Source: Amycolatopsis sp.
GTDB taxonomy: Bacteria; Actinomycetota; Actinomycetes; Mycobacteriales; Pseudonocardiaceae
Reading direction: 5' to 3'
Assembly (NCBI RefSeq): GCF_036008905.1
Contig: NZ_DASYMU010000010.1
Coordinates: 301 to 64,300 of the forward strand
Length of the DNA stretch: 64,000 bases
The position numbers and the translations under genes were made by a program. This document shows positions 1 through 17,908 of this stretch, in pieces; the stretch's first letter is position 1; each line of letters opens with the position of its first letter. The notes under the pieces are model-generated. The model was not told where the DNA came from. It saw only the letters and a list, made by a program, of their open reading frames with translations, and made no database searches.

Positions 1-533
1 ATCATCAGGACGCCGACCACGGCGATGACGAGCGACTGCCCGGCCTTGCTCTCGATGCCCAGCAGCAACGCGACCAGCCCACCGGCCCCGGCCATCTGCG
101 CGAGCAGGTAGAAGAACGACACGGCCAGCGTCGACACCGCCGCGGCGGCGCGCACCGGGCGTTGCTTCATCCGGAACGCCAGCACGTCACCCATGGTGAA
201 CTTGCCGGTGTTCCGCAGGAGCTCCGCGACCAGCAACAGCGCGACGAGCCACGCCACCAGGAAGCCGATCGAATAGAGGAAACCGTCGTACCCGTTGATC
301 GCGATGGCCCCGGCGATCCCCAGGAACGACGCCGCCGAGAGGTAATCGCCGGAAATCGCGATGCCGTTCTGCGGACCGGTGAAGGCTCGCCCGGCGGCGT
401 AGTAGTCCGACGCGGTCTTGCTGTTGCGGCTGGCCCGGAACACGATCACGAGAGTGATCAGCACGAACACCGCGAAAATGGTGATGTTCAGCGCCGGGTT
501 ACTGCCCTCGACCGGCGCGGCGAGGTTGATCAT
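1..533 (-). CDS. actP: Cation/acetate symporter ActP-like (sodium:solute symporter), runs off the window's left edge
   Basis: Not in the ORF track (open at the edge). Reverse-strand translation from ATG at 533: MINLAAPVEGSNPALNITIFAVFV...DYYAAGRAFTGPQNGIAISGDYLSAASFLG, the ActP signature. ATGA overlap with the upstream DUF485 gene. Confidence 0.9.
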   Translation of the reverse strand, partial: MINLAAPVEGSNPALNITIFAVFVLITLVIVFRASRNSKTASDYYAAGRAFTGPQNGIAISGDYLSAASFLGIAGAIAINGYDGFLYSIGFLVAWLVALLLVAELLRNTGKFTMGDVLAFRMKQRPVRAAAAVSTLAVSFFYLLAQMAGAGGLVALLLGIESKAGQSLVIAVVGVLM

Positions 534-865
534 TTGGCTGCTCCCTCGATATCGCCGCGGATCTTGTCGGAGATCGGGTCGAGGTTCTTGTTCGCGTAGC
601 GCACGTACAACCCGGTGATCACAAAGGTCGAGACGAACTGCAGCAGGCCGAAGATCAGGCCGACGGTGATGTTGCCCGCCACCTTCGTCGACATGAACCC
701 GTGGGCGTAGTCGGCGAGCAGCACGTAAAGCAGGTACCAGAGCAGGAAGATCGCCGACACCGGGAAGACGAAGTTACGCAAGCGCTTGCGTAACCGGGCG
801 AATTCCGGGCTGGCTTGGATCTGTTCCCAATCGGTCTCGGCCTCGTGGGCGACGTCTTTCTCCAT
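530..865 (-). CDS. DUF485 (YjcH-like) small membrane protein, ActP partner
   Basis: MEKDVAHEAETDW...FARLRKRLRNFVFP, two TM helices, YVRYANK-LDP motif; AGGAGGT RBS before ATG 865; coupled to actP. Confidence 0.9.
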   Translation of the reverse strand: MEKDVAHEAETDWEQIQASPEFARLRKRLRNFVFPVSAIFLLWYLLYVLLADYAHGFMSTKVAGNITVGLIFGLLQFVSTFVITGLYVRYANKNLDPISDKIRGDIEGAAK

Positions 866-1096
866 TGCGGACCTCCTGCTCCGTCGGTTCCCGACACGCC
901 GGGTTTCGAGTCGTTGATCGGTTGTTTTTGCCTGCGGCACGACTCAAGCGCCGACTGAGATCATCCCCCCGCAGGGCCACCCATGCTGATAATCCGATTG
1001 AGTGAACGGTATGACGCAAAGTAGATCAATGCGCGTCTGTTCTCGACGGAATGTCCTGATTCGATTACCGAAGGGAATGTCATCGCCCCGAACCGG

Positions 1097-2887
1097 CTAC
1101 TTGCGGTGCTTTCCCTTGGTCAGCCGCACCTTTTCCTCGACCTGGTTCCCGAACCGCGCGACGGCCCGGTCCCGCATGAAGCCCAGCGGATCCGGCGCGT
1201 GCAAGCGCAACATCACGGCGTTGAGATCCTCGGGGATGCCGTACTTCGTGGCCTTGCTGACGACGTAGGTCGTGAGGAACGCGGCCGGCACGGTGATCAG
1301 CGCGGGCTGGCTGGTGAACCAGGGCGCCCAGTTGCCGGTGTACCCGCTGACGATGTCGGCGACCAATGCGAGCAGCACGAGCCCGCCACCGACAGTCATC
1401 CCGGCCATCGCGCCGGGCCAGCTCAGCTTCCGCCACCAGATGCCGAGCACCAGCAGCGGGCTGAACGTCGACGCCGCGAGCGCGAACGACATGCCGACGC
1501 TGAACGAAATGTCCTCGGCCCGCAGCAGTACCGCCAGCACCATCGGCAGGAACGCGACGATCGCCGTCGCCACGCGGAAGTCCCGTACCCGCCCCGGAAG
1601 CACGTCGGTCGAGACCACTCCGGCGACACTGACCAGCAGCCCGGACGAGCTCGACAGGAAGGCGGCGAACGCGCCCGCCGCCGTCACCGCGCCCAGAATC
1701 TGCCCCGCGACGCCGGGCAACAACGCGCTCGGCAGGCGCAGCACGGCCGCGTCCGACTCGCCGGTCACCAGCAACTCAGGCACGTACATCCGGGAGAGCG
1801 CGCCGAGCATGGTCGGGAAGAGATAGAACAAACCCAGTAACAGCAACACATGTACGGTCGTGCGCCGCGCGGCCTTCCCGTCGGGGTTGGTGTAGAACCG
1901 CACCAGCACATGCGGAAGTCCCATAGTGCCGAGGAACAACGCGAAGATCAGCGAGTACGTCTGCAGCAGGTCGGTCACACCACCGGAGCTCGCGCGCAGC
2001 CAGTCCGCGTTCTGCGTCTGCGCGCCGCTGATGACCGGGACCGGGGTGCCGGCGGAGAAGCGCAGCGTCGTTCCCGCGGCGACCTGACGCTTGATCCCCG
2101 ACGCCCAGTACACCTCGCCGTCCGCCGTCGCGCCGTCCACTCGCCCATACGCCCAGAGGTTCACCGACCCGGCGACCTCGACGGTGATGTCCGTCTTGAC
2201 GTCGACCGTGGTCTCCTGCACGAAAACCGGCGGCGCCTCCGCACCGAGCGGCCGGGCGCCGTCCGGGCCGCCACCGCCGAGGAAGACCACGCACAGGATG
2301 AACGTCGGCGCCGCGATCGCGAACAGCTTGAGCCAGTACTGGAACGCCTGCACCACGGTGATCGCGCGCATGCCGCCGGCGATCACGTTGACCGCGACCA
2401 GGAAGGTCACCAGCACCGCGCCGGCCCACGCCGGGACCGGCAGGATCGTCGCCAGGGTCAGCCCGGCGCCCTGCAGCTGCGGGACCATGTAGAGGATGCC
2501 GATGAAGATGACGAACGCCGTCGAGAACTTGCGCAACGAAACCGAACCAAGCCGCGCCTCGATGAAGTCGGGCAGTGTGTACGCGCCGGAACGCCGCAGC
2601 GGCGCGGCGACGAAGAGCATCAGCGCCAGATAACCCGCGGTGAACCCGATCGGGAACCACAGCGCGTCGGCGCCGTCCTTGAGCACGACCCCCGCGACCC
2701 CCAGGAAGGACGCGGCGGAGAGGTACTCACCGGAGATGGCGGCGGCGTTGCGGCGCGAGCGGACCGTTCGCCGCGCGACGAGGAAGTCATGGGTGGTGAC
2801 GGCGAACCGGGACGAGCGGTGACCCAGATAGAAGGTCACCACGGCGACCAGCACGATGCCGGTCAACGCCCATGGGTTCAGCTGCAC
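1097..2887 (-). CDS. Second sodium:solute symporter (ActP-like) with a large extracytoplasmic insertion
   Basis: AAISGEYLSAASFLG, GTMGLPHVLVRFYTNPDG and AASTFSPLLVLGIWW SSS motifs; many TM helices. Confidence 0.88.
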   Translation of the reverse strand: MQLNPWALTGIVLVAVVTFYLGHRSSRFAVTTHDFLVARRTVRSRRNAAAISGEYLSAASFLGVAGVVLKDGADALWFPIGFTAGYLALMLFVAAPLRRSGAYTLPDFIEARLGSVSLRKFSTAFVIFIGILYMVPQLQGAGLTLATILPVPAWAGAVLVTFLVAVNVIAGGMRAITVVQAFQYWLKLFAIAAPTFILCVVFLGGGGPDGARPLGAEAPPVFVQETTVDVKTDITVEVAGSVNLWAYGRVDGATADGEVYWASGIKRQVAAGTTLRFSAGTPVPVISGAQTQNADWLRASSGGVTDLLQTYSLIFALFLGTMGLPHVLVRFYTNPDGKAARRTTVHVLLLLGLFYLFPTMLGALSRMYVPELLVTGESDAAVLRLPSALLPGVAGQILGAVTAAGAFAAFLSSSSGLLVSVAGVVSTDVLPGRVRDFRVATAIVAFLPMVLAVLLRAEDISFSVGMSFALAASTFSPLLVLGIWWRKLSWPGAMAGMTVGGGLVLLALVADIVSGYTGNWAPWFTSQPALITVPAAFLTTYVVSKATKYGIPEDLNAVMLRLHAPDPLGFMRDRAVARFGNQVEEKVRLTKGKHRK

Positions 2888-2938
2888 TGGGAGATCCTCG
2901 CACTCGAGCGCCCGCGCTCGGTCTTCGACTGGTTGCGG

Positions 2939-3436
2939 TCAGTTCTCGATCATGTCGACGAAATCGCGCTCGTGCCGCTCGGCGAGCCGGTTGTACCAAA
3001 GCCCGACACCGAACAGCAACGGAAACGGCACGACCCCGAGGATCAGCCACGGCATCGGCACGCCGATGAACGACAGCCGGCCGAACGACGGGACGAAGTA
3101 GAACAGGATCGGCAGCGACCCGAGCAGGGCCACGACCAGCAACGCCAGCAGCAGTCCGGTCCGGAGCTGCGCCTTGACGAGGTCCTTGATGAGGAGCTCG
3201 CCCCAGCTGGTCTGTTCTTCCAACTCGACGCGGGCACGCAGGGTGTTGGCGGCGACCCGCGGATCGGCGAGCACCACCCGTTGCCGGCGGATCTTCTGCT
3301 GCGGCTCCGCCTGTTGCTGGTTCAGGAACTGCTCGACCAGATCGGGTTCGGGCGGGTCGGTGCGGTTCAGGTTCTTGCCGAGGGTCGGATCCGGTTTGCG
3401 GAACCCGTCTTCCCCGTAGTAGTTGTCTTCGGTCAT
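2939..3436 (-). CDS. DUF485-like two-TM membrane protein
   Basis: Two hydrophobic helices ending YNRLAERHERDF; sits between the LytTR gene and the symporter. Confidence 0.7.
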   Translation of the reverse strand: MTEDNYYGEDGFRKPDPTLGKNLNRTDPPEPDLVEQFLNQQQAEPQQKIRRQRVVLADPRVAANTLRARVELEEQTSWGELLIKDLVKAQLRTGLLLALLVVALLGSLPILFYFVPSFGRLSFIGVPMPWLILGVVPFPLLFGVGLWYNRLAERHERDFVDMIEN

Positions 3437-3438
3437 CG

Positions 3439-4275
3439 CTAGGAGTTTCTAGACGAGCCGACCAGCCGGTCCTTCAACTCGCGGGTGTGCCGTCTGCTGA
3501 CCGGCAGCACCTTCTCCTCGTTGCCGATGACCACCTGGTAGCCGCCCTGGCCCATCCGCAGCTCGGTGATGAGCCCGAGCGCGACCAGGAACGACCGGTG
3601 GATCCGCACGAAGCCGGCCTTTTCCCAGCGCTCTTCGAGCTGTGCGAGCGGGATCCGCACGAGGTGGCTGCCGTCGGTGGTGAACAGGCGCGCGTAGTCG
3701 CCCTGCGCCTCGACCCACCGGACCGAAGAACGCTGGATGAGTTTCGTGGTGCCTGCCAGCTCGACCGGGATGACCTCGTCGTCGTTCTTGACCGGCGCGG
3801 CGCCGCCTGGCGGCGCGTCGAGCGAAGGCGCGGACTGGAGCTTCTCCACGACCCGCTGGATCGCCCTGTCCAGGCGGTTCTGCTTGCACGGCTTGAGCAC
3901 GTAGTCGATCGCGCCGAGTTCGAACGCGTTGACGGCCTCGTCGGCATGCCCGGTCACGAAGACGAGCAGCGGCGGCGGGCTCAGCGCGCTGAGCACCTTC
4001 GACATCTCCATGCCCGACAGCCCTGGCATCTGGATGTCGGCGAACACGGCGTCGACCGGGGGAAGGCCGCGTTCCTTCCGCATCCTGAGCTCGGGGTCGT
4101 CGGACGCGATGATGCGCCGCAACGCCTCGGAAGCGTCGACCGCTTCGAGAACACGGCTGACTTGGTGGTTGCTGTCCAGACAGTGGACCAACTCGGACAA
4201 ACCATGCGGCTCATCGTCCACAGCGAGGACGATGAGCTGACGGGTGGCATCTTGAGCACTCACAGTGATTCGCAT
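3439..4275 (-). CDS. LytTR-family response regulator
   Basis: Receiver domain (LAVDDE, FADIQMP, VFVTGH, DYVLKP) plus LytTR domain (VEAQGDY, FVRIHRSFLV, LPVSRR). Start uncertain (4275 or 4263). Confidence 0.92.
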   Translation of the reverse strand: MRITVSAQDATRQLIVLAVDDEPHGLSELVHCLDSNHQVSRVLEAVDASEALRRIIASDDPELRMRKERGLPPVDAVFADIQMPGLSGMEMSKVLSALSPPPLLVFVTGHADEAVNAFELGAIDYVLKPCKQNRLDRAIQRVVEKLQSAPSLDAPPGGAAPVKNDDEVIPVELAGTTKLIQRSSVRWVEAQGDYARLFTTDGSHLVRIPLAQLEERWEKAGFVRIHRSFLVALGLITELRMGQGGYQVVIGNEEKVLPVSRRHTRELKDRLVGSSRNS

Positions 4276-4359
4276 CCTGCCTATTGCAGGCGGCAATGTC
4301 CATACCTTCGAGACCACGCGCACCGATGAGATGGTCCCGCGTTCGACCGTACCGCCCAA

Positions 4360-4396
4360 CGGTGCCGATGCCCCCACGCTGAAGGCACCGGCACCG
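4360..4396 (-). terminator. Hairpin downstream of the GH16 gene
   Basis: CGGTGCCGATGCC / GGCACCGGCACCG, 13-bp stem with one mismatch. Confidence 0.5.
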
Positions 4397-4405
4397 AATG
4401 ACCGA

Positions 4406-5851
4406 CTAGTGGCCGAAGGTGAACCAGTTCAGGTTCACGAAGTCAGCCGGTTGGCCGCTCGTGAACGTCAGGTACACCGTGTGGACCCCGGTCGTGGCGC
4501 CGATGTTGGCCGGGATCGTGCGCCAGCTCTGCCAGCCGCCGGTGTTGCCGACGGCGAAGCTGCCGACCGGTGCGTTGCTCCGGCTGTCCAGCCGCACTTC
4601 GACCAGGCCGCTCACCCCGCCCGCGGCCCCCGAGGCGACTCTCGCCACGAACTGGCGGCCGGGCGTGCTCCCGAAGTCGACGTTCGGATAGGACGCCCAG
4701 TCCCCGTTGCCCGCCGGGCCGACAGCCTGTCCGCCACCGGTGTCGGTTGTGGACTGCGTGGCCAGTCCGCCCTGCTGACCGAAGGATTCGGCCTGGATGG
4801 TGGCGTAGGCGTTGCCGGGATTACCCGGCGTGGTCGGCGTGGTGGGCGTCGTCGGAGTGGTGGGTGTGGTCGGGGTCGTCGTGGTGCCACCACCACTGGT
4901 GGACACCGACACGTAGTCGACGACCATCGGGCGACCGGGCACGATTCCCGGTCCTGGTGTGGTGGTGCCCGAGTTGTTGTTCGGGAAGGCGCCACCGATC
5001 GCGACGTTCAGCAGGATGAAATAGCCCGCGTGGTTGGTCATGTTGGCCCACGTCGTGGCGTCGACCTGGTTCTGGCTGACGGAGTGGAACTGCTGCCCGT
5101 CGACGAACCAGCGGAAGACCTGCGGCGAGGCGCTCGCGTCCCACTCGAAGCGGTACGTGTGGAACGCGGACTGGCAGCTCGCGCCGGGGCAGGCCCGGTT
5201 GGCCACGATGCCGGTGGTCTCGTTGCACGGGCCGCCGGGGTTGACGCCGCAGTGCAGCACGCCCCACACGGAGTTGATCCCGTTGACGTTCTCCATGATG
5301 TCGAACTCGCCGATGGCGGGCCAGTTCCAGTTGTTGCCGCGGTACGGCGAGCCCAGCGCCCAGAATGCGGGCCAGTAGCCGAGCGCGGCGGCCCCGGTGA
5401 CGTTCGGCATCTGGATGCGGCTTTCGATCCGCATCGCACCGCCTGCGGGCGGCTTGAAGTTGGTCCGCTGCGTCTCGATCCGGGCCGACGTCCACGCGCC
5501 CGCGCCGTCGCGTTGCGGGGTGATCTTCAGGTTGCCCGCGCCGTCGAGGGCCAGGTTGTTCGGGTTGGTCGTGTAGTTCTGGATCTCACCGGTGCCCCAG
5601 TTCCCCGGCCCGCCCGGGTAGCCGAACCCGGTGTCGTAGATCCAGTTGGACGCGGACGGCAATGAGTTGGCGGCGCCGTTGAAGTCGTCCGCGAAAACTG
5701 TGGTCCAGCCCGGGTCCGGTGGCGGGACCGAGGCTTCGGCGGTCATGGTGAGCGGAATGGCGACCAGCACCGCGCCGGCGACCGCACTCAACGTGCCCCA
5801 CCAGCGCCGGCGGGTTCGTGGCGCTCTGGACGAAACTGATGTGACGGGCAT
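4406..5851 (-). CDS. Secreted GH16 beta-1,3-glucanase with Pro/Thr linker and C-terminal CBM6
   Basis: Signal peptide; GH16 catalytic GEFDIMENVNG (ExDxxE); TTP-repeat linker; CBM6 (IQAES, GDWASY, TGGWQSW, VNLNWFTF); GAGGAGG RBS before ATG 5851. Confidence 0.92.
   Translation of the reverse strand: MPVTSVSSRAPRTRRRWWGTLSAVAGAVLVAIPLTMTAEASVPPPDPGWTTVFADDFNGAANSLPSASNWIYDTGFGYPGGPGNWGTGEIQNYTTNPNNLALDGAGNLKITPQRDGAGAWTSARIETQRTNFKPPAGGAMRIESRIQMPNVTGAAALGYWPAFWALGSPYRGNNWNWPAIGEFDIMENVNGINSVWGVLHCGVNPGGPCNETTGIVANRACPGASCQSAFHTYRFEWDASASPQVFRWFVDGQQFHSVSQNQVDATTWANMTNHAGYFILLNVAIGGAFPNNNSGTTTPGPGIVPGRPMVVDYVSVSTSGGGTTTTPTTPTTPTTPTTPTTPGNPGNAYATIQAESFGQQGGLATQSTTDTGGGQAVGPAGNGDWASYPNVDFGSTPGRQFVARVASGAAGGVSGLVEVRLDSRSNAPVGSFAVGNTGGWQSWRTIPANIGATTGVHTVYLTFTSGQPADFVNLNWFTFGH
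4827..4886 (-). repeat. Degenerate 9-bp tandem repeat encoding the (TTP)n linker
   Basis: Translates as TTTTPTTPTTPTTPTTPTTPG between the catalytic domain and the CBM. Confidence 0.8.
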
Positions 5852-5971
5852 GGGTGACCTCCTCGTCAACCCGAACCGGCCGATACAGGGCATTTGTTGC
5901 CGGTCACAACAAAGCCTCGCCCCATGAGACCTGAAGGTCTAGACCATGTCTGTACGCCATTCGAGTGAAAG

Positions 5972-5987
5972 TGTGGTCCTTATCACA
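5972..5987. promoter_or_regulatory. CRP/GlxR-like box upstream of the glucanase
   Basis: TGTGG-TCCTTA-TCACA, a 9/10 match to TGTGA-N6-TCACA. Confidence 0.5.
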
Positions 5988-6006
5988 TGGTGCCAAGCCT
6001 TAATAT

Positions 6007-6073
6007 GCACTTTCTCGCCTAAGTGCCCCCCTTTTCGCGACGTGAAAAGGGGGGCACTTAGGCGAGAAAGTGC
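6007..6073. repeat. Perfect 30-bp inverted repeat (7-nt loop)
   Basis: GCACTTTCTCGCCTAAGTGCCCCCCTTTTC at 6007-6036 and its exact reverse complement at 6044-6073. Confidence 0.95.
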
Positions 6074-6084
6074 GACCGGTTAAC

Positions 6085-6930
6085 TCAAAGCCCGAATCGC
6101 GACCAAGCCGCTTTCGTCGTCACCGCGTCGATCAACGCACTGGCCGCCGCCGGCGCGCCGATACCCAGCCTCGCCAGCAACGCTTTCTTGGGCTCCGCAA
6201 CGGAAATCTCCGCCCCCGGGTACCGCGCGTTGATCACCTCGCGTAACGTCCCGACCCCGTCGATGAGCCCGAGTTCCAACGCCTTGTTCCCGAGCCAGAC
6301 GTCACCGGTGAACAGATCTTCCTCGGTGGACAATTTGTCCCCGCGACGTTCCTTGACCCATTCCACGAACAATTCGTGCAGCTGGGAATGCATCTTTTTC
6401 AACCACTCGACGTCTTCCGGCTTCTCCGGGCTGAACGGGTCGAGCCGCGACTTGTTGGCGCCCGCGGTGTGCAGCCGGCGCTCGATGCCGAAGCGCTCCA
6501 GCAGCCCGGTGAAGCCGAACCCGCCGCTGATCACGCCGATCGAGCCGACCATCGACGTCCGGTGCGCGAAGATCTCGTCGGCCGCGCAGGCGAGCCAGTA
6601 CCCGCCGGAAGCGGCGACGTCCTCGCAGAACGCGATCACCGGCACGTTCTTCTTGTCCGCGAGCTGCCGGATCCGCTCCGCGACCAGGCCCGACTGCGTG
6701 GGTGCCCCACCGGGCGAGTTGATCTGCAGCGCGACGGCCTTGAGGCGGTCGTGGCTGAACGCCCTGGTGAGCGCGGACTCCACCGCGGAGAGGTTGATCG
6801 AGCCCCTGGCCAGCGGCGACGGCGACGGCGTGATGACGCCATGCAGTTTCACCACGGCGACGATGTCGGTGCGATCACCCCTGTCGCCGATCATCGGGAG
6901 GCGGGAAGTCAGCTTGTCCGTGACGCTCAT
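6085..6930 (-). CDS. S49 family peptidase (SppA/SohB-like)
   Basis: INSPGG, DVAASGGYWLA, VGSIGV and GDVWLG motifs. Confidence 0.92.
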   Translation of the reverse strand: MSVTDKLTSRLPMIGDRGDRTDIVAVVKLHGVITPSPSPLARGSINLSAVESALTRAFSHDRLKAVALQINSPGGAPTQSGLVAERIRQLADKKNVPVIAFCEDVAASGGYWLACAADEIFAHRTSMVGSIGVISGGFGFTGLLERFGIERRLHTAGANKSRLDPFSPEKPEDVEWLKKMHSQLHELFVEWVKERRGDKLSTEEDLFTGDVWLGNKALELGLIDGVGTLREVINARYPGAEISVAEPKKALLARLGIGAPAAASALIDAVTTKAAWSRFGL

Positions 6931-6969
6931 ATCGCCACCTTACTGACGTTTTGACCCGGCTTCAGCGCG

Positions 6970-8262
6970 CTAGACGCCGCCGCGCGCCGCCGGCAGCACG
7001 CCGCTGCGCGAGCCGATGCCGCCGTTGTCCAGCTGGGGCTGGTCGTCGCCCTCGTCTTCACCGGGGGCGAAGTCGGGCAGGTTCGGGCGGACGCCGTTGA
7101 CGAACTTCGGCACCCGGAGCGTCACCTTCATGCCCGCGCCCGGCGCGGTTTCGACGATCAGCGCGTAGTCGCCACCGAAGACCTGCTGCATGCGCTGGTT
7201 GATGTTCCCGAGCCCGACGTGCGCGCCCGTGCGATGCGAGCTGCGGAGCCCTTCGAGCCGCGACGGGTCCATGCCGATGCCGTCGTCCTCGACGCTGATC
7301 AGCGCTTCGGAACCGAAGTCCTGCGCGATCACCGTCACCGTGCCGCCGCTGGGCTTGTTCGCCAGCCCGTGCTTGACCGCGTTCTCGACGAGCGGCTGGA
7401 TGATCAGGAACGGCACGACCACCGCGAGCACCTCGGGCGCGATCTTCATCCGGACTTCGAGCCGTCCACCGAAGCGCGCGGCCTCGATGGTCAGGTAACG
7501 GTCGATGTTGCGGAGTTCCTCGCTCAACGTCGTGAACATGCCCGAAGTACGGAACGAGTACCGCGTGAAGTCCGCGAACTCCATGAGCAACTCCCGCGCT
7601 TCCTCGGGATCCGTGCGGATCAGCGAGGAGATCGTGTTGAGCGCGTTGTAGACGAAGTGCGGCGAAATCTGCGCGCGCAGCGCCTTGATCTCGGACTGCT
7701 GCAGCTGGTGCTTGGATTCGTCGAGCCGCGCGAGTTCGAACTGCGTGCAGACGAAGTGCGCGACGGCGTCGGCCATCTCGATGAGCCTGCCGCGCGTCCG
7801 GCCGACGACGATCAGCGCCGCCTCGGTCTCGCCTTCGACGATCAGCGGCACGATGACCGCCGTTTTCATCCGGCAGGTCCCGCGGTGGTTGCAGGGCATC
7901 TTGTCGTGCTGGACGACCTCGCGCCGGTGCTTGCGGATCGCCGAGCCGATCGCCTCGACCAGGTCGACGTAGTGGTCGTTGGCCTCGCCGTCCCACGAAA
8001 GCAGCGTGCCTTCGCCGTCGGTGATGCCGACGGCCACACACTTCAGCATGTCGAGCAGCTGGGTGGTGATCTTGTCCGCGGCCTCCTCGGTGAGGCCTTC
8101 CCGCAGGTCAGGGGTCGCTTTCGACAACCCGTGCACCGCTTCCAGCCGCGCGTTCTCGACGACATGACCAGGCTGGCGCGCCTTGATGATCATGACAACG
8201 ATGACGATGAGGAGCACGCCGACCAGTCCCCAGGGAACGATCTGAGCAATAGGCCAGTACAC
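6970..8262 (-). CDS. LytS-type sensor histidine kinase with one N-terminal TM and a GAF-like domain
   Basis: ALRAQISPHFVYNALNTI (LytS H-box), QPLVENAVKHG, VEDDGIG, VGLGNI. Start estimated at GTG 8262. Confidence 0.9.
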   Translation of the reverse strand: MYWPIAQIVPWGLVGVLLIVIVVMIIKARQPGHVVENARLEAVHGLSKATPDLREGLTEEAADKITTQLLDMLKCVAVGITDGEGTLLSWDGEANDHYVDLVEAIGSAIRKHRREVVQHDKMPCNHRGTCRMKTAVIVPLIVEGETEAALIVVGRTRGRLIEMADAVAHFVCTQFELARLDESKHQLQQSEIKALRAQISPHFVYNALNTISSLIRTDPEEARELLMEFADFTRYSFRTSGMFTTLSEELRNIDRYLTIEAARFGGRLEVRMKIAPEVLAVVVPFLIIQPLVENAVKHGLANKPSGGTVTVIAQDFGSEALISVEDDGIGMDPSRLEGLRSSHRTGAHVGLGNINQRMQQVFGGDYALIVETAPGAGMKVTLRVPKFVNGVRPNLPDFAPGEDEGDDQPQLDNGGIGSRSGVLPAARGGV

Positions 8263-8423
8263 AGCCTCAATGCTCTGCGCTCTGGCATCCGGCTGCAAGG
8301 CTTGCAACCCACTTTCTGTGCGATTTGGAAAACGGAGAGTGGGCCAGACCCTACCCATTGTCCGGTGAGACACCCGATGGTTTTCGTGTGGTTCACCCGC
8401 GAAGCTGAATGGTGACCGCGAAA

Positions 8424-9275
8424 CTATTTCAGCAGGCGGGACATCCGCCGATCGGCCAGCGGTTTGCCACCGGTCTGGCAGGTGGGGCAGTACTGGAACG
8501 ATTTGTCCGCGAACGAGATCTCCCGCACGGTGTCACCGCAGACCGGGCACGGCAGGCCCGTTCGCGCGTGGACGCGCAGGCCGGACCGCTTCTCGCCCTT
8601 GAGGCGCGCCGCGTCCTGCCCGACTGAGCGGGTGACGGCACTGGTCAGGATCTCGTGGATGGCGTCGGCGAGCCTGTCGAGCGCCTCGTCGGGGAGCTTG
8701 CCGGGCGTGGAGTACGGCGAAAGCTTGGCCATGTGCATGATCTCGTCGGAGTAGGCGTTGCCGATCCCGGCGATCACTTTCTGGTCCGTCAACGCCGTTT
8801 TCAGGCGTTCGGTGCGGCCGGCGAACAACTCGCCGAGTTTCGCCCGATCGAGCGACAACGCGTCGGGGCCGAGCCGCGCGACGCTGGCGACCTCGCTGGG
8901 GTCGCGCACGATCCACACCGCGAGCCCCTTTTTCGTGCCCGCCTCGGTGAGGTCGAACCCTGGCCCGCCGAGATGGACGCGCAGGGAGATCGGGCTCTTG
9001 CCGGGTTTGAGCGGGGTCGGCGACAACGCGTCGGACCAGCGCAGCCACCCGGCACGCGCGAGATGCGTGATCAGATGCAGCTCGCCGACGACGAGGTCGA
9101 GGTGCTTGCCGAAGCGGCCGGCCCCGGTCACCTCGAGGCCCCGCAGGTCGGTGTAGGACGGGCTGAACGTTTTGAGCACGCTCAGCGAGGCCACGTCGAT
9201 CCGGCTGATCGTGCGGCCGACGGCGTGTTCGCGCAGGTGGTGGGCCAGCGCTTCGACTTCCGGCAACTCCGGCAT
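8424..9275 (-). CDS. Fpg/Nei family DNA glycosylase/AP lyase
   Basis: N-terminal MPELPEVE, H2TH IAGIGNAYSDE, C-terminal CPVC...CPTCQ zinc finger. Confidence 0.95.
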   Translation of the reverse strand: MPELPEVEALAHHLREHAVGRTISRIDVASLSVLKTFSPSYTDLRGLEVTGAGRFGKHLDLVVGELHLITHLARAGWLRWSDALSPTPLKPGKSPISLRVHLGGPGFDLTEAGTKKGLAVWIVRDPSEVASVARLGPDALSLDRAKLGELFAGRTERLKTALTDQKVIAGIGNAYSDEIMHMAKLSPYSTPGKLPDEALDRLADAIHEILTSAVTRSVGQDAARLKGEKRSGLRVHARTGLPCPVCGDTVREISFADKSFQYCPTCQTGGKPLADRRMSRLLK

Positions 9276-9292
9276 GCTGCCAGTGTCGTTGG

Positions 9293-9733
9293 CTATTCCA
9301 CCGGGCGCAACGGGCCGTCGAAGTCCGGCAGCGAGTGGGCCTGGATGGTCTTCGCGATCTTGACGACCTCGCCGCGGATGCGGAACATGCCGCGCACGTT
9401 GCCGACCCAGCGCTCGGCGGGCCGGTCACCGGTCATGTCGCCCTCGGTTTCGGCGACGACCTTCCACGGCCGGCGAAGGATCCAGCGCAGCGGGAAGAAG
9501 AGCATGACGAGCAGCAGCGCGAGAATCACCCAAGCGGGGACGTGCACGTCGGCCGGCGTCCAGACGACCAGCACCAGCGCGAGGATCACGGTCACCACGA
9601 TCATCGCGATGCCCGAGCCGTAGCTGTCCGCGACGTCGTGGTCGAAGCTGTCCGAGGTGGCGGGCTGCCGCCACTCCATCTCGGCGCGCACCACCCAGTC
9701 CCGGCCGTCATCGCCCTGCACCAGCCGGTTCAT
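9293..9733 (-). CDS. Hypothetical two-TM membrane protein
   Basis: MNRLVQGDDGRDWVVRAEMEW..., two hydrophobic helices; RBS-like GAGGAA. Confidence 0.7.
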   Translation of the reverse strand: MNRLVQGDDGRDWVVRAEMEWRQPATSDSFDHDVADSYGSGIAMIVVTVILALVLVVWTPADVHVPAWVILALLLVMLFFPLRWILRRPWKVVAETEGDMTGDRPAERWVGNVRGMFRIRGEVVKIAKTIQAHSLPDFDGPLRPVE

Positions 9734-9836
9734 CTGTTCCTCCCGCGCGACGCTCGCTCCCGGTGAGCGCGTTCCACCGTACCGTGATCGCGGCCGGCTT
9801 CGCGAGGCCAGAATCCCTGGAGATCGGGTGTTTCGG

Positions 9837-11336
9837 CTACTCGGGTGACACCGCGGAGGACGTCGAATCCGGCGATGTGGCGGAATCGGAGCCACTGATC
9901 GTCGTATCGGCGGTGGTCGTGGGCTTGGGGCTCGAGGACGGCGGACGCCACGGCGGCGTGCCCGTCGACCACGGGTAGCTCGGCTTGGGTTTGCACGAAG
10001 GCTCTTCGGTGTCCGAGGGCTGGGACGAGTCCGGCGCTGCCGTCTCCGAGAGGAGCGGCGCGTCGTCCCGGGCGCTCGTGGTGGTGGCCTCCGCCGGCGG
10101 CGGGTCCAGCCGCGGCTCACCGGACGGCTCTGTGGTCCCGAATCCGGGCTCGGTCCCCGGCTTCGCGGGCGGGATCCCGGCACCGCCGTCCGGGGCCGTC
10201 CCGGCGTTCTGGGGGGCGCCGAGCGGCACTCCCGCGGCGCCGCCACGGGCCACGTCACCGCTGACGTGGTGCACGAACGGGCCGGCGGCCTTCACATTCA
10301 GCTGATCGATACCGAGCGCGATCTGCGGCGGCTCGGGAACCGGCGCCTGCGGATCGACCCGCAGGTCGTCGCCGGTCTTGCCGGACAAGCCGACCGTCTG
10401 GTGGCTGTCGGCGTCGAAAACCGCCGGGCCGACGGCGATGCCGAAGGCACCCGCTGCCGCGGTGGACGCGAGCGCCATCCCGACCTTGATCTTGGATCCG
10501 ACCAGCACGCTCTTCACCGCGGCCAAGACACCGCCACCGCCACCGAAGCCCAGTGCGGCGGCGGGCACCAGCAGCACGACGACACCGGCGTGCGCCCGCA
10601 GCGACGAGCAGACGTCCCGCAGCTCGTCGTGGGTCGCCCGGCACGAGGTGCAGCCGAGAAGATGGGTCCTGATCCGGCGCGCTTCGGTGCCCGTGACACT
10701 GCCCGCGGTGTAGCCGCCGAGCTTTTCGACGACCGCGCGGCAGCCGTCGGAACTGCGGTTCACGGCCAGGTGGGCCTGCAGATACGCGGCGCGGAGGCCT
10801 TGGCGGGCGCGGCGGGCGAGCGCGGCCGTCGCGTTGGCGCTGAGCCCGAAATGGGGCGCGACCATCGCCGGCTGCTCGCCCTCGACCTCGGTCTGCCAGA
10901 GCACGGTCCGCCAGCGCTCGGGAAGGCTGGTGAACGCCGTGGTGATCAGCGTGTGTTCGGCGGAGCGGGCGTGCGTATCCGCCCCTGCCCCCACCCGGAA
11001 GGTCAGTTCGTCGTCGCTGACCGGGACGTCGCGGCGCGCGCCGTGCCATTCCCACGACACCCGGCGCGCGACCGTCAGCAGGTAGGCACGCACGTAGTCG
11101 CGTGGCCCGGCCCCGCGGCGGATCGCCTGCAGGACGCGGAAGAACGTCTCGGCCGTGATGTCCTCGGCTTCGGACTGGTCCGAAGCGATGCTCCGGGCCA
11201 GCCTGCGGACGGCGGCGGCGTGCAGTTCGAAGAGCTCGCCGAAGGCCGCGTCCTCGCCTCCCCGCAGCCGCAGCAGAAGTGCCTGCTCGTCGGATCCCGA
11301 GGCCGCCTGATGCGGCACTGTGCCCTGCTCGGTCAT
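9837..11336 (-). CDS. ECF sigma factor fused to a zinc finger (zf-HC2), a TM segment and a Pro/Ser/Thr-rich tail
   Basis: Sigma2 (AEDITAETFFRVL, YLLTVARR), sigma4 (LPERWRTVLW, ARRARQGLR), HLLGCTSCR, hydrophobic stretch, then a low-complexity tail. Confidence 0.88.
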   Translation of the reverse strand: MTEQGTVPHQAASGSDEQALLLRLRGGEDAAFGELFELHAAAVRRLARSIASDQSEAEDITAETFFRVLQAIRRGAGPRDYVRAYLLTVARRVSWEWHGARRDVPVSDDELTFRVGAGADTHARSAEHTLITTAFTSLPERWRTVLWQTEVEGEQPAMVAPHFGLSANATAALARRARQGLRAAYLQAHLAVNRSSDGCRAVVEKLGGYTAGSVTGTEARRIRTHLLGCTSCRATHDELRDVCSSLRAHAGVVVLLVPAAALGFGGGGGVLAAVKSVLVGSKIKVGMALASTAAAGAFGIAVGPAVFDADSHQTVGLSGKTGDDLRVDPQAPVPEPPQIALGIDQLNVKAAGPFVHHVSGDVARGGAAGVPLGAPQNAGTAPDGGAGIPPAKPGTEPGFGTTEPSGEPRLDPPPAEATTTSARDDAPLLSETAAPDSSQPSDTEEPSCKPKPSYPWSTGTPPWRPPSSSPKPTTTADTTISGSDSATSPDSTSSAVSPE

Positions 11337-11517
11337 CCGGCCAGGCACCTCCTCCCCGAATTACCAACCATTCGGTCGAATGGAGACACCATACGGAGCG
11401 AAACCCTCGTCGTCACCCCTTGTACGCCAGGAGTGACGGAAGAGGTTGATGAAGGGTGGGTCGCACGGGCACTGGGACGTCGTATAGGCTGTGCCCAGCA
11501 CCAGTTGATCGGTGCTT

Positions 11518-11590
11518 GCGGACGTGGCGCAGCTGGTAGCGCATCACCTTGCCAAGGTGAGGGTCGCGAGTTCGAATCTCGTCGTCCGCT
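11518..11590 (+). tRNA. tRNA-Gly (GCC), CCA not encoded
   Basis: GCGGACG acceptor stem pairing with CGTCCGC, D-loop AGCTGGTA, anticodon arm TCACC-TTGCCAA-GGTGA, T-loop GTTCGAATC. Confidence 0.97.
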
Positions 11591-11594
11591 CGCG

Positions 11595-11635
11595 AAGGGC
11601 CCTGTGTTTTGCGGAAACGCGAACATGGGGCCCTT
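11595..11635 (+). terminator. Hairpin after the tRNA
   Basis: AAGGGCCCTGTGTT / AACATGGGGCCCTT followed by TTCCGTTT. Confidence 0.6.
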
Positions 11636-11645
11636 TCCGTTTGAG

Positions 11646-11696
11646 TAGACACCGCGTTTTGACTAGACACCGCGTTTTGGGCGGACACCGGGCTTG
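11646..11696. repeat. Three direct repeats with an 18-bp period
   Basis: TAGACACCGCGTTTTG at 11646 and 11664 (identical) and a degenerate GGACACCGGGCTTG at 11683. Confidence 0.8.
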
Positions 11697-11778
11697 CACC
11701 GTGCGGAACACACTAGACCGTCCGGCCCAATGTCTAGACCATTGTGGCCAAGATCATGGTGGCCATCTCGGACTCTCC

Positions 11779-11794
11779 GCTGGCCTAGACCAGT
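11779..11794. promoter_or_regulatory. DasR-type (dre-like) GntR/HutC operator
   Basis: GCTGGCCTAGACCAGT, 14/16 match to ACTGGTCTAGACCAGT; a weaker site (TGTCTAGACCA) at 11731-11741. Confidence 0.55.
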
Positions 11795-11927
11795 GGTCGT
11801 GGCCCTCACCTCCCCTTCATCTCATTACGCCGTTTAGGACATCGCGGACACGGCCGACGCGTTCCGTTCCTGTTCGGATGTCGCCTTCTCGCGAATTCTT
11901 AACCGGCTATTTCCACCTTTGTTCCCC

Positions 11928-12488
11928 GTGACCGAACTGACCCGCCGCCGGTGTCGCCGCCGCCGCGGCCGCGACTTCCCTTATGCCACCCAATGTGCAG
12001 CGCGCACTCGCCCAGGGCGCCCCCAAACACGGTTCCCTGCGCGATATCGAACATGTCGTCATGCTGATGCAGGAAAACCGTTCCTTCGGCCGACGTCCCA
12101 CGCCTGGCAGGTGCAGCACGACGCCTGGAACGGTGGGAAAATGGACAACTGGCTGCCGGCGCACCGCAAAGCCGACGGCAAGAACGGCTCGTACGTCATG
12201 GGCTACCACACCCGCGCCGATCTGCCGTTCCAGTTCGCGCTCGCCGAGACGTTCACCGTCTGCGATTCCTGCCATTGCTCGGTTTTCGGCCCCACGGCGT
12301 GGGCGAAAACCGCGTTCATCCTGAACTACGACGAAAACGACGGCCTCTTCGACCACACTTCGGTGTTGCAGCTGCTGGAAAAGGTGACCGGCGTGACCGA
12401 GCCGAACATCTCGCAGTGGCGGCGCAAGACGTTCGGTGACCTGACTCAGGAACCCGGCCACCGCCCGCGAGTCCCGCGCGGCCACTAA
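11928..12488 (+). pseudogene. Phosphocholine-specific phospholipase C (phosphoesterase family) remnant with frameshifts and large internal deletions
   Basis: Tat-like TRRR start; IEHVVMLMQENRSF; HAW..QHDAWNGGKMD; CHCSVFGPT; KTAFILNYDENDGLFDH; TSVLQLLE; FGDLT. The motifs are in order but compressed into about 560 bp across different frames. Confidence 0.85.
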
Positions 12489-12512
12489 AAATGCCACCGT
12501 GGCCAAAGAACG

Positions 12513-12914
12513 CTAGTGATCGAACTCCGGATAAACGTCCACAATGGTCGGTGCGACCGGGGAAAGCAGGGTGTCCGCCATTTCCGTGACCTGGCCACGG
12601 GCCATCCGGTGGACACGGAACTCGTTGTCGTGCTGGAGATCCTGGTCGTCCCAGACATGCAGGAGCCCGTAGGACCCGGGGGCGAGCTCACCGATCCTGG
12701 TGTACAGGTCCAGCAGATCCGGCGCCATCGTGGCGCCGTGTTTGTCTAGGCCGCCGAGGTGCAGCACCGGCACCCCGTTCACCCAGCGAAGATCGACGAG
12801 GTCGATCTCCCCGAAGTCCCGTACCGCCCGGCGCACCCGCTCGACGAGTCGCTCGAGCAGCGACGTTTCGTCGTCGTTCGCCTGGATCGTGACCCACCCG
12901 TGGTATTCGAACAC
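12513..12914 (-). CDS. Imm7-family immunity-like protein
   Basis: MFEYHGWVTI start, GSYGLLHVWDD, NEFRVHRMARG, DTLLSP; recognised from memory of the family pattern. Confidence 0.7.
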   Translation of the reverse strand: MFEYHGWVTIQANDDETSLLERLVERVRRAVRDFGEIDLVDLRWVNGVPVLHLGGLDKHGATMAPDLLDLYTRIGELAPGSYGLLHVWDDQDLQHDNEFRVHRMARGQVTEMADTLLSPVAPTIVDVYPEFDH

Positions 12915-12942
12915 GCGGAGAGCCTAAGTCCAGCGGTTTTCC

Positions 12943-13473
12943 TCAGACGAGGGCGGTCCCGTCACGCCGGAGAACCGCCGTCATCGCGTCGTTCCGGTGC
13001 GTCTCGACGGCGTCGACGAGTTCCTTGCCGAACACGCAGAGCGAGCGTTCCCACGGATGGCCCAGGGTGCCGAACCTGAAGTCCTGCGCGAGGAACAGAT
13101 GGTAGTCACCGCGCGGGAAAACCGGTACCGGCCAGCGCTGCGACCCGCCCATGCGGTGCGGCCAGAACCGGTAGGACTGGTGCTGCCAGTGCAGCGCCCA
13201 CACCCACTCGTCCGGCTGGACGCAGGCGCGCAGTGCCTGCAGCGCCAGCGTGGCCACGTCATCTTCCTTGACCGAGTACGGGCCGAGGCGGAACTCGGCG
13301 GACGCGCGGTCGGCGTCACCGGCGGAAAGATCCCAGGTGACCGACGGCGACGGCTCACGGAAGCCTGGCCACGCGTTGGCGTACGTGCTCGGCCAGAAGC
13401 CCAGCTTGTCGTAAACCCAGTACCACGCCGGTTCGTCGGCGACTCTGGACAGCTGTTCCCAGGCAGGATTCAC
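12943..13473 (-). CDS. DUF2716-domain protein
   Basis: WALHWQHQSYRF, PVFPRGDYHLF, GTLGHPWERSLCVFG; GTG start at 13473 with GAGG. Confidence 0.78.
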   Translation of the reverse strand: MNPAWEQLSRVADEPAWYWVYDKLGFWPSTYANAWPGFREPSPSVTWDLSAGDADRASAEFRLGPYSVKEDDVATLALQALRACVQPDEWVWALHWQHQSYRFWPHRMGGSQRWPVPVFPRGDYHLFLAQDFRFGTLGHPWERSLCVFGKELVDAVETHRNDAMTAVLRRDGTALV

Positions 13474-13767
13474 TATCGACCTCAGTTGCTCGCACCGGCT
13501 AAGACCTTGAAAGCTTCGTATTCGACGCCGGAGTTGTCCAGTTGAGTTTGCGCTAGTTGCGGAATCGCTTCGCAATGGGGGTTGCGACCGGCCGGTTGAC
13601 AGTTATGAAATTGATACCGAACGTCGATCTTGTCCCGGCATTCGTTCGACTGAATGCCGATCTTCGAAGCAGTGCGCAACCGAACGGCCGAGGACGCCGG
13701 GCTCGTTCGGCGGTACCGTGCCGACCCCTTTTATGATTCGCCCATCCTGACTGTCCACAAAGGGCAA

Positions 13768-14499: not shown

Positions 14500-14639
14500 A
14501 GTGTCGCTCTTTTCTCCACGGAACGGCTCTCGCCGGCCGACCCGCACACAACCGATGAGGATCCTACTTCCAGTTTGGGCCCGCATAGGATGAACCGGCA
14601 CGAACAACACTGGGGTCGATTCACCTTCAAGGAGCAGGC

Positions 14640-15719: not shown

Positions 15720-15734
15720 CGATCGAACACGGCA

Positions 15735-15770
15735 AAAGGGGCAGGGCGAGACAACTCGCCCTGCCCCTTT
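15735..15770. terminator. Bidirectional terminator between convergent genes
   Basis: 16-bp perfect stem AAAGGGGCAGGGCGAG-ACAA-CTCGCCCTGCCCCTTT. Confidence 0.85.
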
Positions 15771-15784
15771 GTCACGTGGCGTTC

Positions 15785-17781: not shown

Positions 17782-17908
17782 TCCACGATCAGATCACAAA
17801 TTCGACCCGCACCGGCCACCGAGAGCGAGACCATGCACAATATGCGGCGTAGTCGCAGATAGGCCTTCGCGGGCCGTGCGTAACAAAAGCCATACGGGGG
17901 TTTACCGG

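What the first reader, a model, noticed from the sequence alone, without database searches (positions are those of the whole stretch)
1..8262. Possible split transporter-sensor system: SSS permease plus a sensor-poor LytS kinase controlling actP
Seen: LytTR, a DUF485-like gene and an atypical SSS permease precede a canonical DUF485-actP pair, all on one strand. The LytS kinase has only one TM and a GAF-like domain, without the usual 5-TM LytS input domain. Established: CbrA and CrbS fuse an SLC5/SSS domain to a histidine kinase for carbon/acetate sensing. Inference: the first permease is a co-sensor for the kinase and the second is the regulated transporter.
Basis: partly seen in the sequence, partly recalled or inferred. 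Interest (0 to 1): 0.55.

Follow-up and report, generated by a model that had tools for sequence, protein, structure and literature searches.

The report
Sensor-less LytS kinase wired to a symporter
An Amycolatopsis-type actinobacterium carries a widely conserved but apparently unstudied gene set: a signalling kinase with no outside-facing sensor always travels with its own small membrane protein and transporter, and probably switches on acetate/pyruvate uptake genes.

Summary
The genes exist, all on the minus strand. actP is cut by the contig end.

The kinase has a LytS-type core, a GAF-like domain, one N-terminal helix and almost no ectodomain. The 5TM-Lyt sensor domain is not found in this genome and occurs in only 1 of 301 Actinomycetes genomes.

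Kinase, LytTR regulator, a remote DUF485 homologue and an ActP-like SSS permease form one block in all 40 loci inspected. They co-occur in about 130 of 301 class genomes.

A LytTR-style direct repeat (CCGYTCGTCGC, 21-bp period) lies upstream of DUF485-actP. Elsewhere it lies upstream of cstA, MFS, another SSS gene and acs. It was not seen before the small-protein/permease pair. The window has only a diverged, family-conserved version.

Control of monocarboxylate uptake is well supported by comparison. The permease as the kinase's input device is plausible but unproven. Sensing of an imported or internal metabolite by the GAF domain is equally open.

No publication on this module was found. First readers of this scan noted it in at least ten other genomes.

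The parts
6970..8373 (-). LytS-type histidine kinase. It has a single N-terminal TM helix (aa 45-63 of the long ORF), a GAF-like domain (aa 91-186), and DHp with a P-H-F H-box plus a CA domain. The probable true start is GTG 8262.
   Evidence: Pfam PF06580, PF02518 and weak GAF hits. Translation. AF2 model: TM 37-60, GAF-like alpha/beta 91-186 at pLDDT 85-92. Best PDB match is the GanS kinase domain. In-frame stops upstream of the Val38 position in 3 orthologues.
6085..6930 (-). S49 (SppA/SohB-like) serine peptidase gene with no TM segment. It is inserted between kinase and regulator.
   Evidence: PF01343 at 120 bits. TIGR00706 domain. Found at this position in 20 of 20 Pseudonocardiaceae genera, but in none of 20 loci from other families.
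4406..5893 (-). Secreted GH16-like glucanase with a C-terminal CBM6. It is a lineage-specific insertion and not part of the module.
   Evidence: CBM_6 at 129 bits and a weak GH16 hit. Present only in G000 and its congener G020 among 20 family loci.
3439..4377 (-). LytTR-family response regulator (receiver plus LytTR). The probable start is ATG 4275.
   Evidence: PF00072 and PF04397. Nearest NCBIfam models are BtsR and LytR, both below cut-off. Orthologue alignments start at residues 25-48.
2939..3436 (-). Small two-TM protein, a remote DUF485 (YjcH/MctB) homologue. It has a conserved cytoplasmic N-terminal segment and starts 2 nt after the regulator's stop codon.
   Evidence: ORF and TM prediction. 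Sub-threshold DUF485 hits. hhalign 75.7%. Alignment A1. Found in 130 of 301 class genomes.
1097..2887 (-). ActP-like SSS/SLC5 permease of 596 aa. It has 13 TM helices and a beta-rich extracytoplasmic insert (about aa 205-305) after TM6. The Na2-site A-x-x-S-S/T motif is kept.
   Evidence: PF00474. Below all NCBIfam cut-offs. AF2 pLDDT 78.7, pTM 0.79. Foldseek matches SGLT2, SGLT1, CHT1 and SiaT. Alignment A3. Orthologue in 61 of 61 family genomes.
941..1096 (-). Intergenic region upstream of DUF485-actP. It holds a family-conserved element with the half-site CCGTTCACTCAA (998-1009). This is the candidate, diverged, LytTR operator.
   Evidence: Sequence. CGTTCACTCGA-like word in 10 of 13 family intergenic regions. 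Exact 12-mer is unique in the window. The class-wide repeat sits at the same position in other loci.
530..940 (-). Canonical DUF485 (YjcH/MctB-type) small membrane protein. The probable start is ATG 865. It shares an ATGA overlap with actP.
   Evidence: PF04341 at 122 bits. Sequence.
3..533 (-). N-terminal 177 codons of an ActP/MctC-type monocarboxylate symporter, cut by the contig end.
   Evidence: NF058657 MctC at 299.9 bits over 167 residues, and PF00474. Contig geometry. C-terminal fragments lie at the ends of contigs C40 and C189.

Best explanation
This is the Pseudonocardiaceae form of an ancient actinobacterial four-gene module. Its parts are a membrane-anchored but sensor-less LytS-type kinase, a LytTR regulator, a DUF485-like two-TM protein and an ActP-like Na+/H+-coupled SSS permease.

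Shown by comparison:
- The four genes travel as one unit.
- The kinase has no extracytoplasmic domain.
- A LytTR-type direct repeat marks DUF485-actP (and cstA, MFS, SSF and acs genes in other species) as the likely regulon.

Inferred:
- The small protein and the permease form a low-level, constitutively co-expressed monocarboxylate (acetate/pyruvate) transporter. This transporter serves as the input device of the kinase.
- Substrate passing through it activates the kinase. This happens either by contact (TM anchor or GAF domain against the small protein or permease) or through the imported substrate binding the GAF domain.
- The phosphorylated regulator then binds the repeats and induces the high-capacity DUF485-ActP/MctC system just downstream.

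In this genome the unit is split by two inserted genes. A second copy without a TM helix in the kinase lies on contig C207.
For: Linkage:
- Nei-HK-S49-RR-small-SSS is present in 20 of 20 family genera.
- HK-RR-small-SSS is contiguous in 20 of 20 loci from other Actinomycetes families, including a permuted order RR-small-SSS-HK.

Co-occurrence:
- The small protein is in 130 and the kinase in 134 of 301 class genomes. They occur largely in the same genomes, usually at adjacent coordinates.

Sensor-less kinase:
- It has one N-terminal TM helix with a minimal ectodomain.
- 5TM-5TMR_LYT is not found in G000 and is found in 1 of 301 class genomes.

Operator:
- CCGYTCGTCGC repeats of 21-bp period (20 bp in two loci; an 11-bp pair in L021) lie upstream of DUF485 in 13 loci (L021, L024, L026, L032, L034-L037, L039, L046, L047, L049, L050), at up to 3 mismatches per pair. 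L034, L035, L036, L049 and L050 were not used to derive the pattern.
- Exact copies are unique per genome in G168, G310 and G313.
- Of 58 sites with at most 1 mismatch, 26 lie within 8 kb of the cluster. Distant ones precede DUF485-actP, cstA, MFS, SSF and acs.
- The architecture matches LytTR sites as described in PMC4847170.

The permease looks functional:
- It has an SLC5 fold and a conserved Na2-site motif.

Analogy:
- BtsSR controls btsT (CstA family) and YpdAB controls yhjX (MFS) (PMC5552118).
- LytST controls pftAB, with feedback from pyruvate influx (PMC5626966).
- SLC5-fused kinases CrbS and RpuS control acs and mctP.
Against: - No protein-protein interaction or multimer model could be computed.
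- No natural permease-kinase fusion was found among longer homologues. The one apparent fusion, P0122, is a frameshifted gene call.
- The paralogous kinase on C207 has no TM helix, so membrane contact through the anchor cannot be universal.
- A few Micromonospora-like genomes (f5) have an extra kinase-regulator pair with no permease beside it.
- In the window the operator is diverged to a single clear half-site with a weak partner 19 bp upstream.
- The raw count of repeat matches is no higher than for a reversed control pattern. The signal is in their location only.
- In CbrA a variant lacking the SSS domain still signals (PMC7918813).
Confidence: 0.5

Rival explanations
1. The kinase senses on its own. 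Its GAF-like domain binds an intracellular metabolite (pyruvate, acetyl-phosphate, acetyl-CoA or similar) that reports carbon status. The small protein and permease are simply a second, co-expressed carboxylate uptake system with no signalling role, and the TM helix is only an anchor.
For: - The GAF-like domain is well folded and conserved.
- The C207 paralogue is fully cytoplasmic.
- Extra kinase-regulator pairs exist without an adjacent permease.
- The BtsS GAF domain was proposed as a hub for an intracellular stimulus (PMC5552118).
- CbrA lacking its SSS domain still signals (PMC7918813).
Against: - It does not explain why the permease pair stays inside the regulatory operon in two different gene orders across a whole class.
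- It does not explain why presence and absence of kinase and small protein coincide genome by genome.
- It does not explain why the single TM anchor is kept in most lineages.
Confidence: 0.3
2. The small protein and permease are the regulated target of an autoregulated operon, as with btsT or yhjX. The downstream DUF485-actP pair is controlled independently, for example by RamA/RamB-type regulators as for mctC in Corynebacterium.
For: - LytS/LytTR systems typically control one adjacent carboxylate transporter.
- In G165 and G284 the repeat precedes cstA, which is followed by the kinase. It could drive the whole block there.
- In G267 a repeat also lies upstream of the kinase.
Against: - In the loci the repeat sits after the permease and before DUF485. 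No comparable pair was seen upstream of the kinase, the regulator or the small protein.
- Distant copies precede actP, cstA, MFS and acs, not the module.
- In the window the regulator's stop and the small protein's start are 2 nt apart, which leaves no room for a separate promoter.
Confidence: 0.12
3. The kinase at 6970-8373 and the regulator at 3439-4377 are not partners in this genome. Two unrelated genes separate them, so the cluster is a chance juxtaposition.
For: About 2.6 kb and two genes separate them.
Against: - The same kinase and regulator are adjacent in every non-Pseudonocardiaceae locus.
- The S49 insertion is fixed across the family and the GH16 gene is a recent addition.
- The genome has only two PF06580 kinases and two LytTR regulators, one of each in each cluster.
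Confidence: 0.03

Closest known systems
BtsS/BtsR and YpdA/YpdB of E. coli; LytS/LytT of B. subtilis (LytS/LytTR pyruvate-responsive two-component systems)
   Same: - Same kinase core: PF06580 DHp with the Pro-His-Phe H-box, HATPase_c and a preceding GAF domain.
- Same LytTR regulator class.
- The predicted regulon includes the same transporter families (CstA-type, MFS) plus carboxylate symporters.
- The operator is a direct repeat with about 21-bp period.
   Different: - The 5TM-5TMR_LYT (7-TM receptor) input domain that binds pyruvate in BtsS is missing. It is replaced by a single TM helix, or by none.
- A DUF485-like protein and an SSS permease are encoded inside the regulatory operon.
- Targets include DUF485-actP and acs.
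SLC5/STAC sensor kinases CbrA, CrbS (MxtR) and RpuS of Proteobacteria
   Same: - An SSS/SLC5 transporter module is tied to a histidine kinase that governs acetate or pyruvate utilisation genes (acs, actP, mctP).
- A small ORF precedes the SSS part (cbrX in Pseudomonas).
   Different: - Here the transporter and the kinase are separate polypeptides.
- There is no STAC or PAS domain; a GAF-like domain is present instead.
- The kinase is LytS-type, not HisKA-type, and the regulator is LytTR, not NtrC or LuxR type.
- No fused form was found.
YjcH-ActP of E. coli and MctB-MctC of Corynebacterium glutamicum (DUF485 + cation/monocarboxylate symporter pairs)
   Same: - A two-TM small protein is followed by an SSS permease.
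- The window's 530-940 and 3-533 pair is a canonical example.
- The 2939-3436 and 1097-2887 pair is a divergent duplicate of the same design.
   Different: - The divergent pair scores below the ActP, MctC and DUF485 thresholds.
- It carries a roughly 100-residue extracytoplasmic beta-rich insert.
- It is co-transcribed with a two-component system.
Transporter-dependent ('co-sensor') kinases: DcuS-DctA/DcuB and BceS-BceAB
   Same: A kinase with little or no sensing domain of its own is proposed to read the state of a dedicated transporter encoded next to it.
   Different: The transporter and kinase families differ, and interaction and flux-sensing have not been shown here.

Membership tests
[quoted passage not shown] | DHp domain of Pfam His_kinase PF06580 with a Pro-His-Phe H-box, plus HATPase_c | tested here: met
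   PF06580 at 89.5 bits and PF02518 at 50.9 bits. 'ISPHFVYNAL' is in the translation. The H-box description comes from PMC10653868.
[quoted passage not shown] | Membrane-integrated 5TM-5TMR_LYT input domain (PF07694) | tested here: not met
   No hit in the kinase. None in the whole genome. Found in 1 of 301 class genomes. A single TM helix is present instead.
[quoted passage not shown] | Cytosolic GAF domain between the membrane part and DHp | tested here: met
   Weak Pfam GAF and GAF_2 hits at E 2e-4 to 7e-4, below gathering score. The AF2 model shows a compact alpha/beta domain at 91-186 with pLDDT 85-92. Foldseek also hits GAF-kinase phytochromes.
[quoted passage not shown] | Partner regulator with receiver and LytTR DNA-binding domain, acting on direct repeats of 9-11 nt with 11-13 nt spacers before a carboxylate transporter gene | tested here: inconclusive
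   The regulator's domains are present. Repeats of this design lie upstream of DUF485-actP, cstA, MFS and acs in relatives. In the window only a diverged half-site is clear. Binding was not tested.
SLC5/STAC histidine kinases (CbrA, CrbS/MxtR, RpuS) | SSS/SLC5 domain fused N-terminally to the kinase in one polypeptide | tested here: not met
   They are separate genes, 1097-2887 and 6970-8373. The search of longer homologues found only an artefactual fusion.
SLC5/STAC histidine kinases (CbrA, CrbS/MxtR, RpuS) | STAC and PAS domains between transporter and DHp | tested here: not met
   Pfam scans of the permease and the kinase show neither.
Cation/acetate symporter ActP or monocarboxylate transporter MctC (NCBIfam equivalogs) | Score above the curated whole-protein cut-off | tested here: not met
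   Permease 1097-2887: MctC 191.7 vs 670, ActP 185.8 vs 750, VC_2705 225.4 vs 320.75. The fragment 3-533 scores 299.9 bits on 167 residues of MctC but is too short to reach the cut-off.
DUF485 (YjcH/MctB) | Pfam PF04341 above gathering score (28 bits) | tested here: not met
   This row is for the small protein 2939-3436: 14.9 bits, E 0.026. The profile-profile comparison supports a remote relationship. The downstream gene 530-940 does meet the threshold at 122 bits.
Transporter/kinase co-sensing systems | Physical interaction of transporter and kinase, and dependence of signalling on the transporter | not testable with these tools
   No multimer prediction or experiment was available. Only gene linkage and co-occurrence were measured.

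The most novel reading that the evidence does not exclude
The DUF485-like protein and the SSS permease form a membrane complex that physically gates a LytS-type kinase lacking any sensor of its own. This would be a split 'transceptor', the actinobacterial counterpart of the fused CbrA/CrbS kinases. In this class it would stand in the place that the 5TM-Lyt receptor domain occupies in LytS-type kinases elsewhere. It would couple carboxylate flux, not concentration, to expression of actP, cstA, MFS and acs genes in nearly half of Actinomycetes.
Probability: 0.3. Interest if true: 0.75.

Novelty: new variant of a known kind. Interest (0 to 1): 0.6.

Why it matters
How bacteria sense acetate and pyruvate is understood in only a few Proteobacteria and Firmicutes.

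This module is present in about 45% of the sampled Actinomycetes. I found no publication on it.

If the permease pair is the input device, it would be a natural split version of transporter-kinase fusions. Transport and signalling could then be separated genetically, which is hard to do in CbrA and CrbS.

The predicted operator (CCGYTCGTCGC, 21-bp period) and regulon (actP, cstA, MFS, acs) give immediately testable handles. They could also serve as parts for acetate- or pyruvate-responsive switches in industrial actinomycetes.

Tried and rejected
- A natural permease-kinase fusion. The only candidate, P0122 (1161 aa, with SSF, His_kinase, receiver and LytTR), has truncated domains joined by low-complexity out-of-frame stretches. 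It is a frameshifted gene call.
- GACATTCC occurs twice, 26 bp apart, upstream of DUF485 (1048-1081), and I considered it as the operator. It is no more frequent than chance in the window and is absent from the closest relative L011. It is kept only as a note.
- The sigma-70 promoter and terminator scan of 1-9400 gave no promoter-like sites, and terminator-like hits at the chance level.
- Single half-sites are too frequent in the genome to define a regulon in G000. G000 has no cstA.
- The raw number of repeat matches across 301 genomes is similar to that of a reversed control pattern, so only their positions were used as evidence.
- Literature searches for the actinobacterial module gave nothing relevant. 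Behr et al. 2014, on the BtsS/YpdA network, is not held, so its reported kinase-transporter interactions are not cited as checked.
Synteny was done with the genome search, the fetch from genomes and tblastn instead.
- The conserved C-terminal 'MLRLHxP' tail of the permease was considered as a kinase-docking motif. ActP/MctC has a similar M-x-V-R tail, so it is not specific.
Full report
WHAT IS THERE

The window is G000:C10:301-64300 of an 8.7-Mb, 259-contig genome. Close homologues of its proteins are from Amycolatopsis.

In 1-9300 the real genes all lie on the minus strand:
- Nei/Fpg glycosylase, 8424-9275.
- LytS-type histidine kinase, 6970-8373.
- S49 (SppA/SohB-like) peptidase, 6085-6930.
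- GH16-like glucanase with CBM6, 4406-5893.
- LytTR response regulator, 3439-4377.
- A 165-aa protein with two C-terminal TM helices, 2939-3436.
- A 596-aa SSS permease, 1097-2887.
- Canonical DUF485, 530-940.
- The first 177 codons of an ActP/MctC-type symporter, 3-533.

actP is also a fragment, because the contig starts only 300 nt before the window. Its C-terminal part, and that of a paralogue, lie at the ends of contigs C40 and C189.

THE KINASE

- It has the LytS-family DHp (PF06580, 'SPHF' H-box), HATPase_c and weak GAF hits.
- It has one hydrophobic helix.
- The AlphaFold model (mean pLDDT 72) shows a TM helix at 37-60, a linker helix, a compact GAF-like domain at 91-186 (pLDDT 85-92), and then DHp and CA.
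- The best solved match is the GanS kinase domain.
- Three orthologues carry in-frame stops just before the conserved 'SIDAV' position. That leaves about 7 residues outside the membrane.
- Across 40 loci most orthologues have a single N-terminal TM helix with 0-40 residues ahead of it.
- PF07694 (5TM-5TMR_LYT) defines the input domain of BtsS, YpdA and LytS (PMC5552118, PMC10653868). It is not found in the kinase or in the whole genome. It was found in only 1 of 301 Actinomycetes genomes.

THE PERMEASE PAIR

- The 596-aa protein is an SSS member, but it scores below every curated cut-off (ActP, MctC, VC_2705).
- Its model (pLDDT 78.7, pTM 0.79) has 13 TM helices of the SLC5/LeuT fold. The closest structures are SGLT2, SGLT1, CHT1 and SiaT.
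- A beta-rich insert at about 218-290 follows TM6. With an outside N-terminus this places the insert outside the cell.
- The Na2-site-like A-x-x-S-S/T motif and many TM residues are invariant in 32 orthologues. The protein therefore looks like a working transporter.
- The small protein gives sub-threshold DUF485 hits over nearly the whole model in 4 of 4 divergent orthologues. A profile-profile match has probability 75.7%, E 2.4e-5. It is a remote YjcH/MctB relative with an extra conserved cytoplasmic N-terminal segment.
- The two pairs (small protein + permease; DUF485 + ActP) are thus an old duplication of one design.

CONSERVATION

- The genome holds a second copy on contig C207. It reads kinase (360 aa, no TM), regulator, small protein, 598-aa permease with the same kind of insert, DUF485 and actP. 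All are contiguous.
- In Pseudonocardiaceae the permease orthologue is in 61 of 61 genomes from 60 genera.
- In 20 genera the order Nei-kinase-S49-regulator-small-permease is kept in 20 of 20. The GH16 gene is present only in G000 and its congener. DUF485-actP follows in 13 of 20.
- In the class, the small protein was found in 130 and the kinase in 134 of 301 genomes. They occur largely in the same genomes, usually at adjacent coordinates.
- Twenty loci from other families all show the four genes together without S49. One large-genome family has the permuted order regulator-small-permease-kinase.
- The functional unit is therefore the four genes. S49 is a family-level insertion and GH16 a recent one.
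- Exceptions are a few genomes of one family, which have an extra kinase-regulator pair with no permease beside it.
- These tallies include unpublished genomes: G004 and G038 in the family search; G066, G089, G095, G322 and G074 in the class searches.

THE LIKELY TARGET

The intergenic regions between the permease and DUF485 share a direct repeat, CCGYTCGTCGC. The period is usually 21 bp, sometimes with a third copy.
- Scanning all fetched loci found repeat pairs (20-21-bp period; an 11-bp pair in L021) upstream of DUF485 in 13 loci: L021, L024, L026, L032, L034-L037, L039, L046, L047, L049 and L050.
- L034, L035, L036, L049 and L050 had not been used to derive the pattern. In L034 and L035 the DUF485-actP pair lies 1-4 kb from the module.
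- No comparable pair was seen upstream of the kinase, the regulator or the small protein.
- The exact double repeat is unique in each of three whole genomes, and it lies exactly there.
- Over 301 genomes, 58 sites with at most 1 mismatch were found. That is about as many as for a reversed control pattern, so the count alone means nothing. However, 26 of them lie within 8 kb of the module. I expect roughly 0.2 by chance (my estimate).
- Sites elsewhere in module-bearing genomes precede the following genes:
  - DUF485-actP: G209, G180, G326, G317, G232.
  - cstA: G230, G165, G284.
  - MFS transporters: G230, G300, G289, G196, G217.
  - Another SSS gene: G315.
  - Acetyl-CoA synthetase: G064, G301.
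- Sites in genomes without the kinase fall in unrelated places, for example inside an ABC ATPase gene.
- The design matches LytTR sites: two repeats of 9-11 nt with an 11-13 nt spacer (PMC4847170).
- The gene set mirrors the known LytS/LytTR regulons btsT (CstA family) and yhjX (MFS), and the CrbS/R regulon (acs).

In the window itself the element has drifted.
- The 941-1096 region holds CCGTTCACTCAA (998-1009). Variants of this word occur in 10 of 13 family intergenic regions.
- Its partner is only a weak repeat 19 bp upstream.
- The C207 copy has CCGTTCGTAAA-CCGTTCGTCGC with 11-bp spacing.

HOW IT PROBABLY WORKS

Shown:
- An intact LytS/LytTR pair.
- No external sensing domain.
- Obligate linkage to a divergent DUF485/SSS pair.
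- A LytTR-type operator on carboxylate uptake and activation genes in relatives.

Inferred:
- The system responds to acetate, pyruvate or related monocarboxylates.
- It induces the downstream DUF485-ActP/MctC.
- The permease pair provides the input.

The evidence cannot tell direct contact apart from import followed by GAF binding. The TM-less paralogue, and the CbrA variant lacking its SSS domain, favour a cytoplasmic signal. The conserved TM anchor, the strict linkage and the class-wide lack of the 5TM-Lyt domain favour a membrane complex.

My probabilities:
- About 0.75 that the two-component system controls actP-type genes.
- About 0.5 that the permease pair is required for sensing.
- About 0.3 that this is by physical contact.

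COMPARISON AND NOVELTY

- It works like BtsSR, YpdAB and LytST, but it fails their defining input domain.
- It resembles CbrA, CrbS and RpuS in tying an SLC5 module to a carboxylate-responsive kinase. It is not fused, lacks STAC and PAS, and uses different kinase and regulator families.
- No fused form was found.
- No paper on the actinobacterial module was found. The SSS review mentions only other actinobacterial SSS fusions.
- Earlier first-reader notes of this scan describe the same module in at least ten other genomes, none followed up.
- I class it as a new variant of a known kind.

Noticed in passing
window 6085-6930 (-): An S49/SppA-like peptidase gene without a TM segment sits between kinase and regulator in all 20 Pseudonocardiaceae genera checked. 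It is absent from the module in other families. Whether it has a role in the system, for example processing of the TM-anchored kinase, is unknown.
   Followed up: partly
window 4406-5893 (-): A secreted GH16-like glucanase with a Thr/Pro linker and CBM6 is inserted inside the module, only in this genome and its congener. It probably splits the kinase-S49 and regulator-permease transcripts. A related GH16 gene also lies about 1.5 kb downstream of the actP gene of the type-2 cluster in L075 (10462-11721).
   Followed up: partly
G000 contigs C10 (1-830), C207 (1-272), C40 and C189 ends: Both module-linked actP paralogues are broken by the assembly. N-terminal parts lie at the starts of C10 and C207, and C-terminal parts at the ends of C40 and C189. 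The middle is missing, presumably a collapsed repeat. A third, intact DUF485-actP pair on C139 shows no operator-like repeat.
   Followed up: partly
window 1048-1081 (-): GACATTCC occurs twice, 26 bp apart, upstream of DUF485. It resembles the YpdB half-site GGCATTTCAT. It is not conserved in the closest relative and is not above chance in the window.
   Followed up: yes
L021 (G039:C1) 6172-17782; G006:C24:232240-235792: Two complete modules (type 1 with S49, type 2 with the TM-less kinase) lie in tandem in one genus. Another genus has two permease genes in tandem. This shows repeated local duplication of the unit.
   Followed up: no
L073 4696-4727 and L074 4580-4611: In one family, an extra kinase-regulator pair without a permease is followed about 45-85 nt after the regulator by the exact operator-type repeat. 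The next clearly coding genes are convergent on the other strand, so this site's target is unclear.
   Followed up: partly
P0122 (ENA metagenome protein, 1161 aa): A database 'protein' that joins kinase, regulator and permease domains is a frameshifted read-through of the whole operon. Such entries could mislead domain-architecture surveys into reporting LytS-SSS fusions.
   Followed up: yes
L053 (G111) and L054 (G071), sites at about 301-332: Near-exact or exact operator repeats (1 mismatch in L053, 0 in L054) lie upstream of ORFs with no Pfam family. These are possible further regulon members of unknown function.
   Followed up: partly
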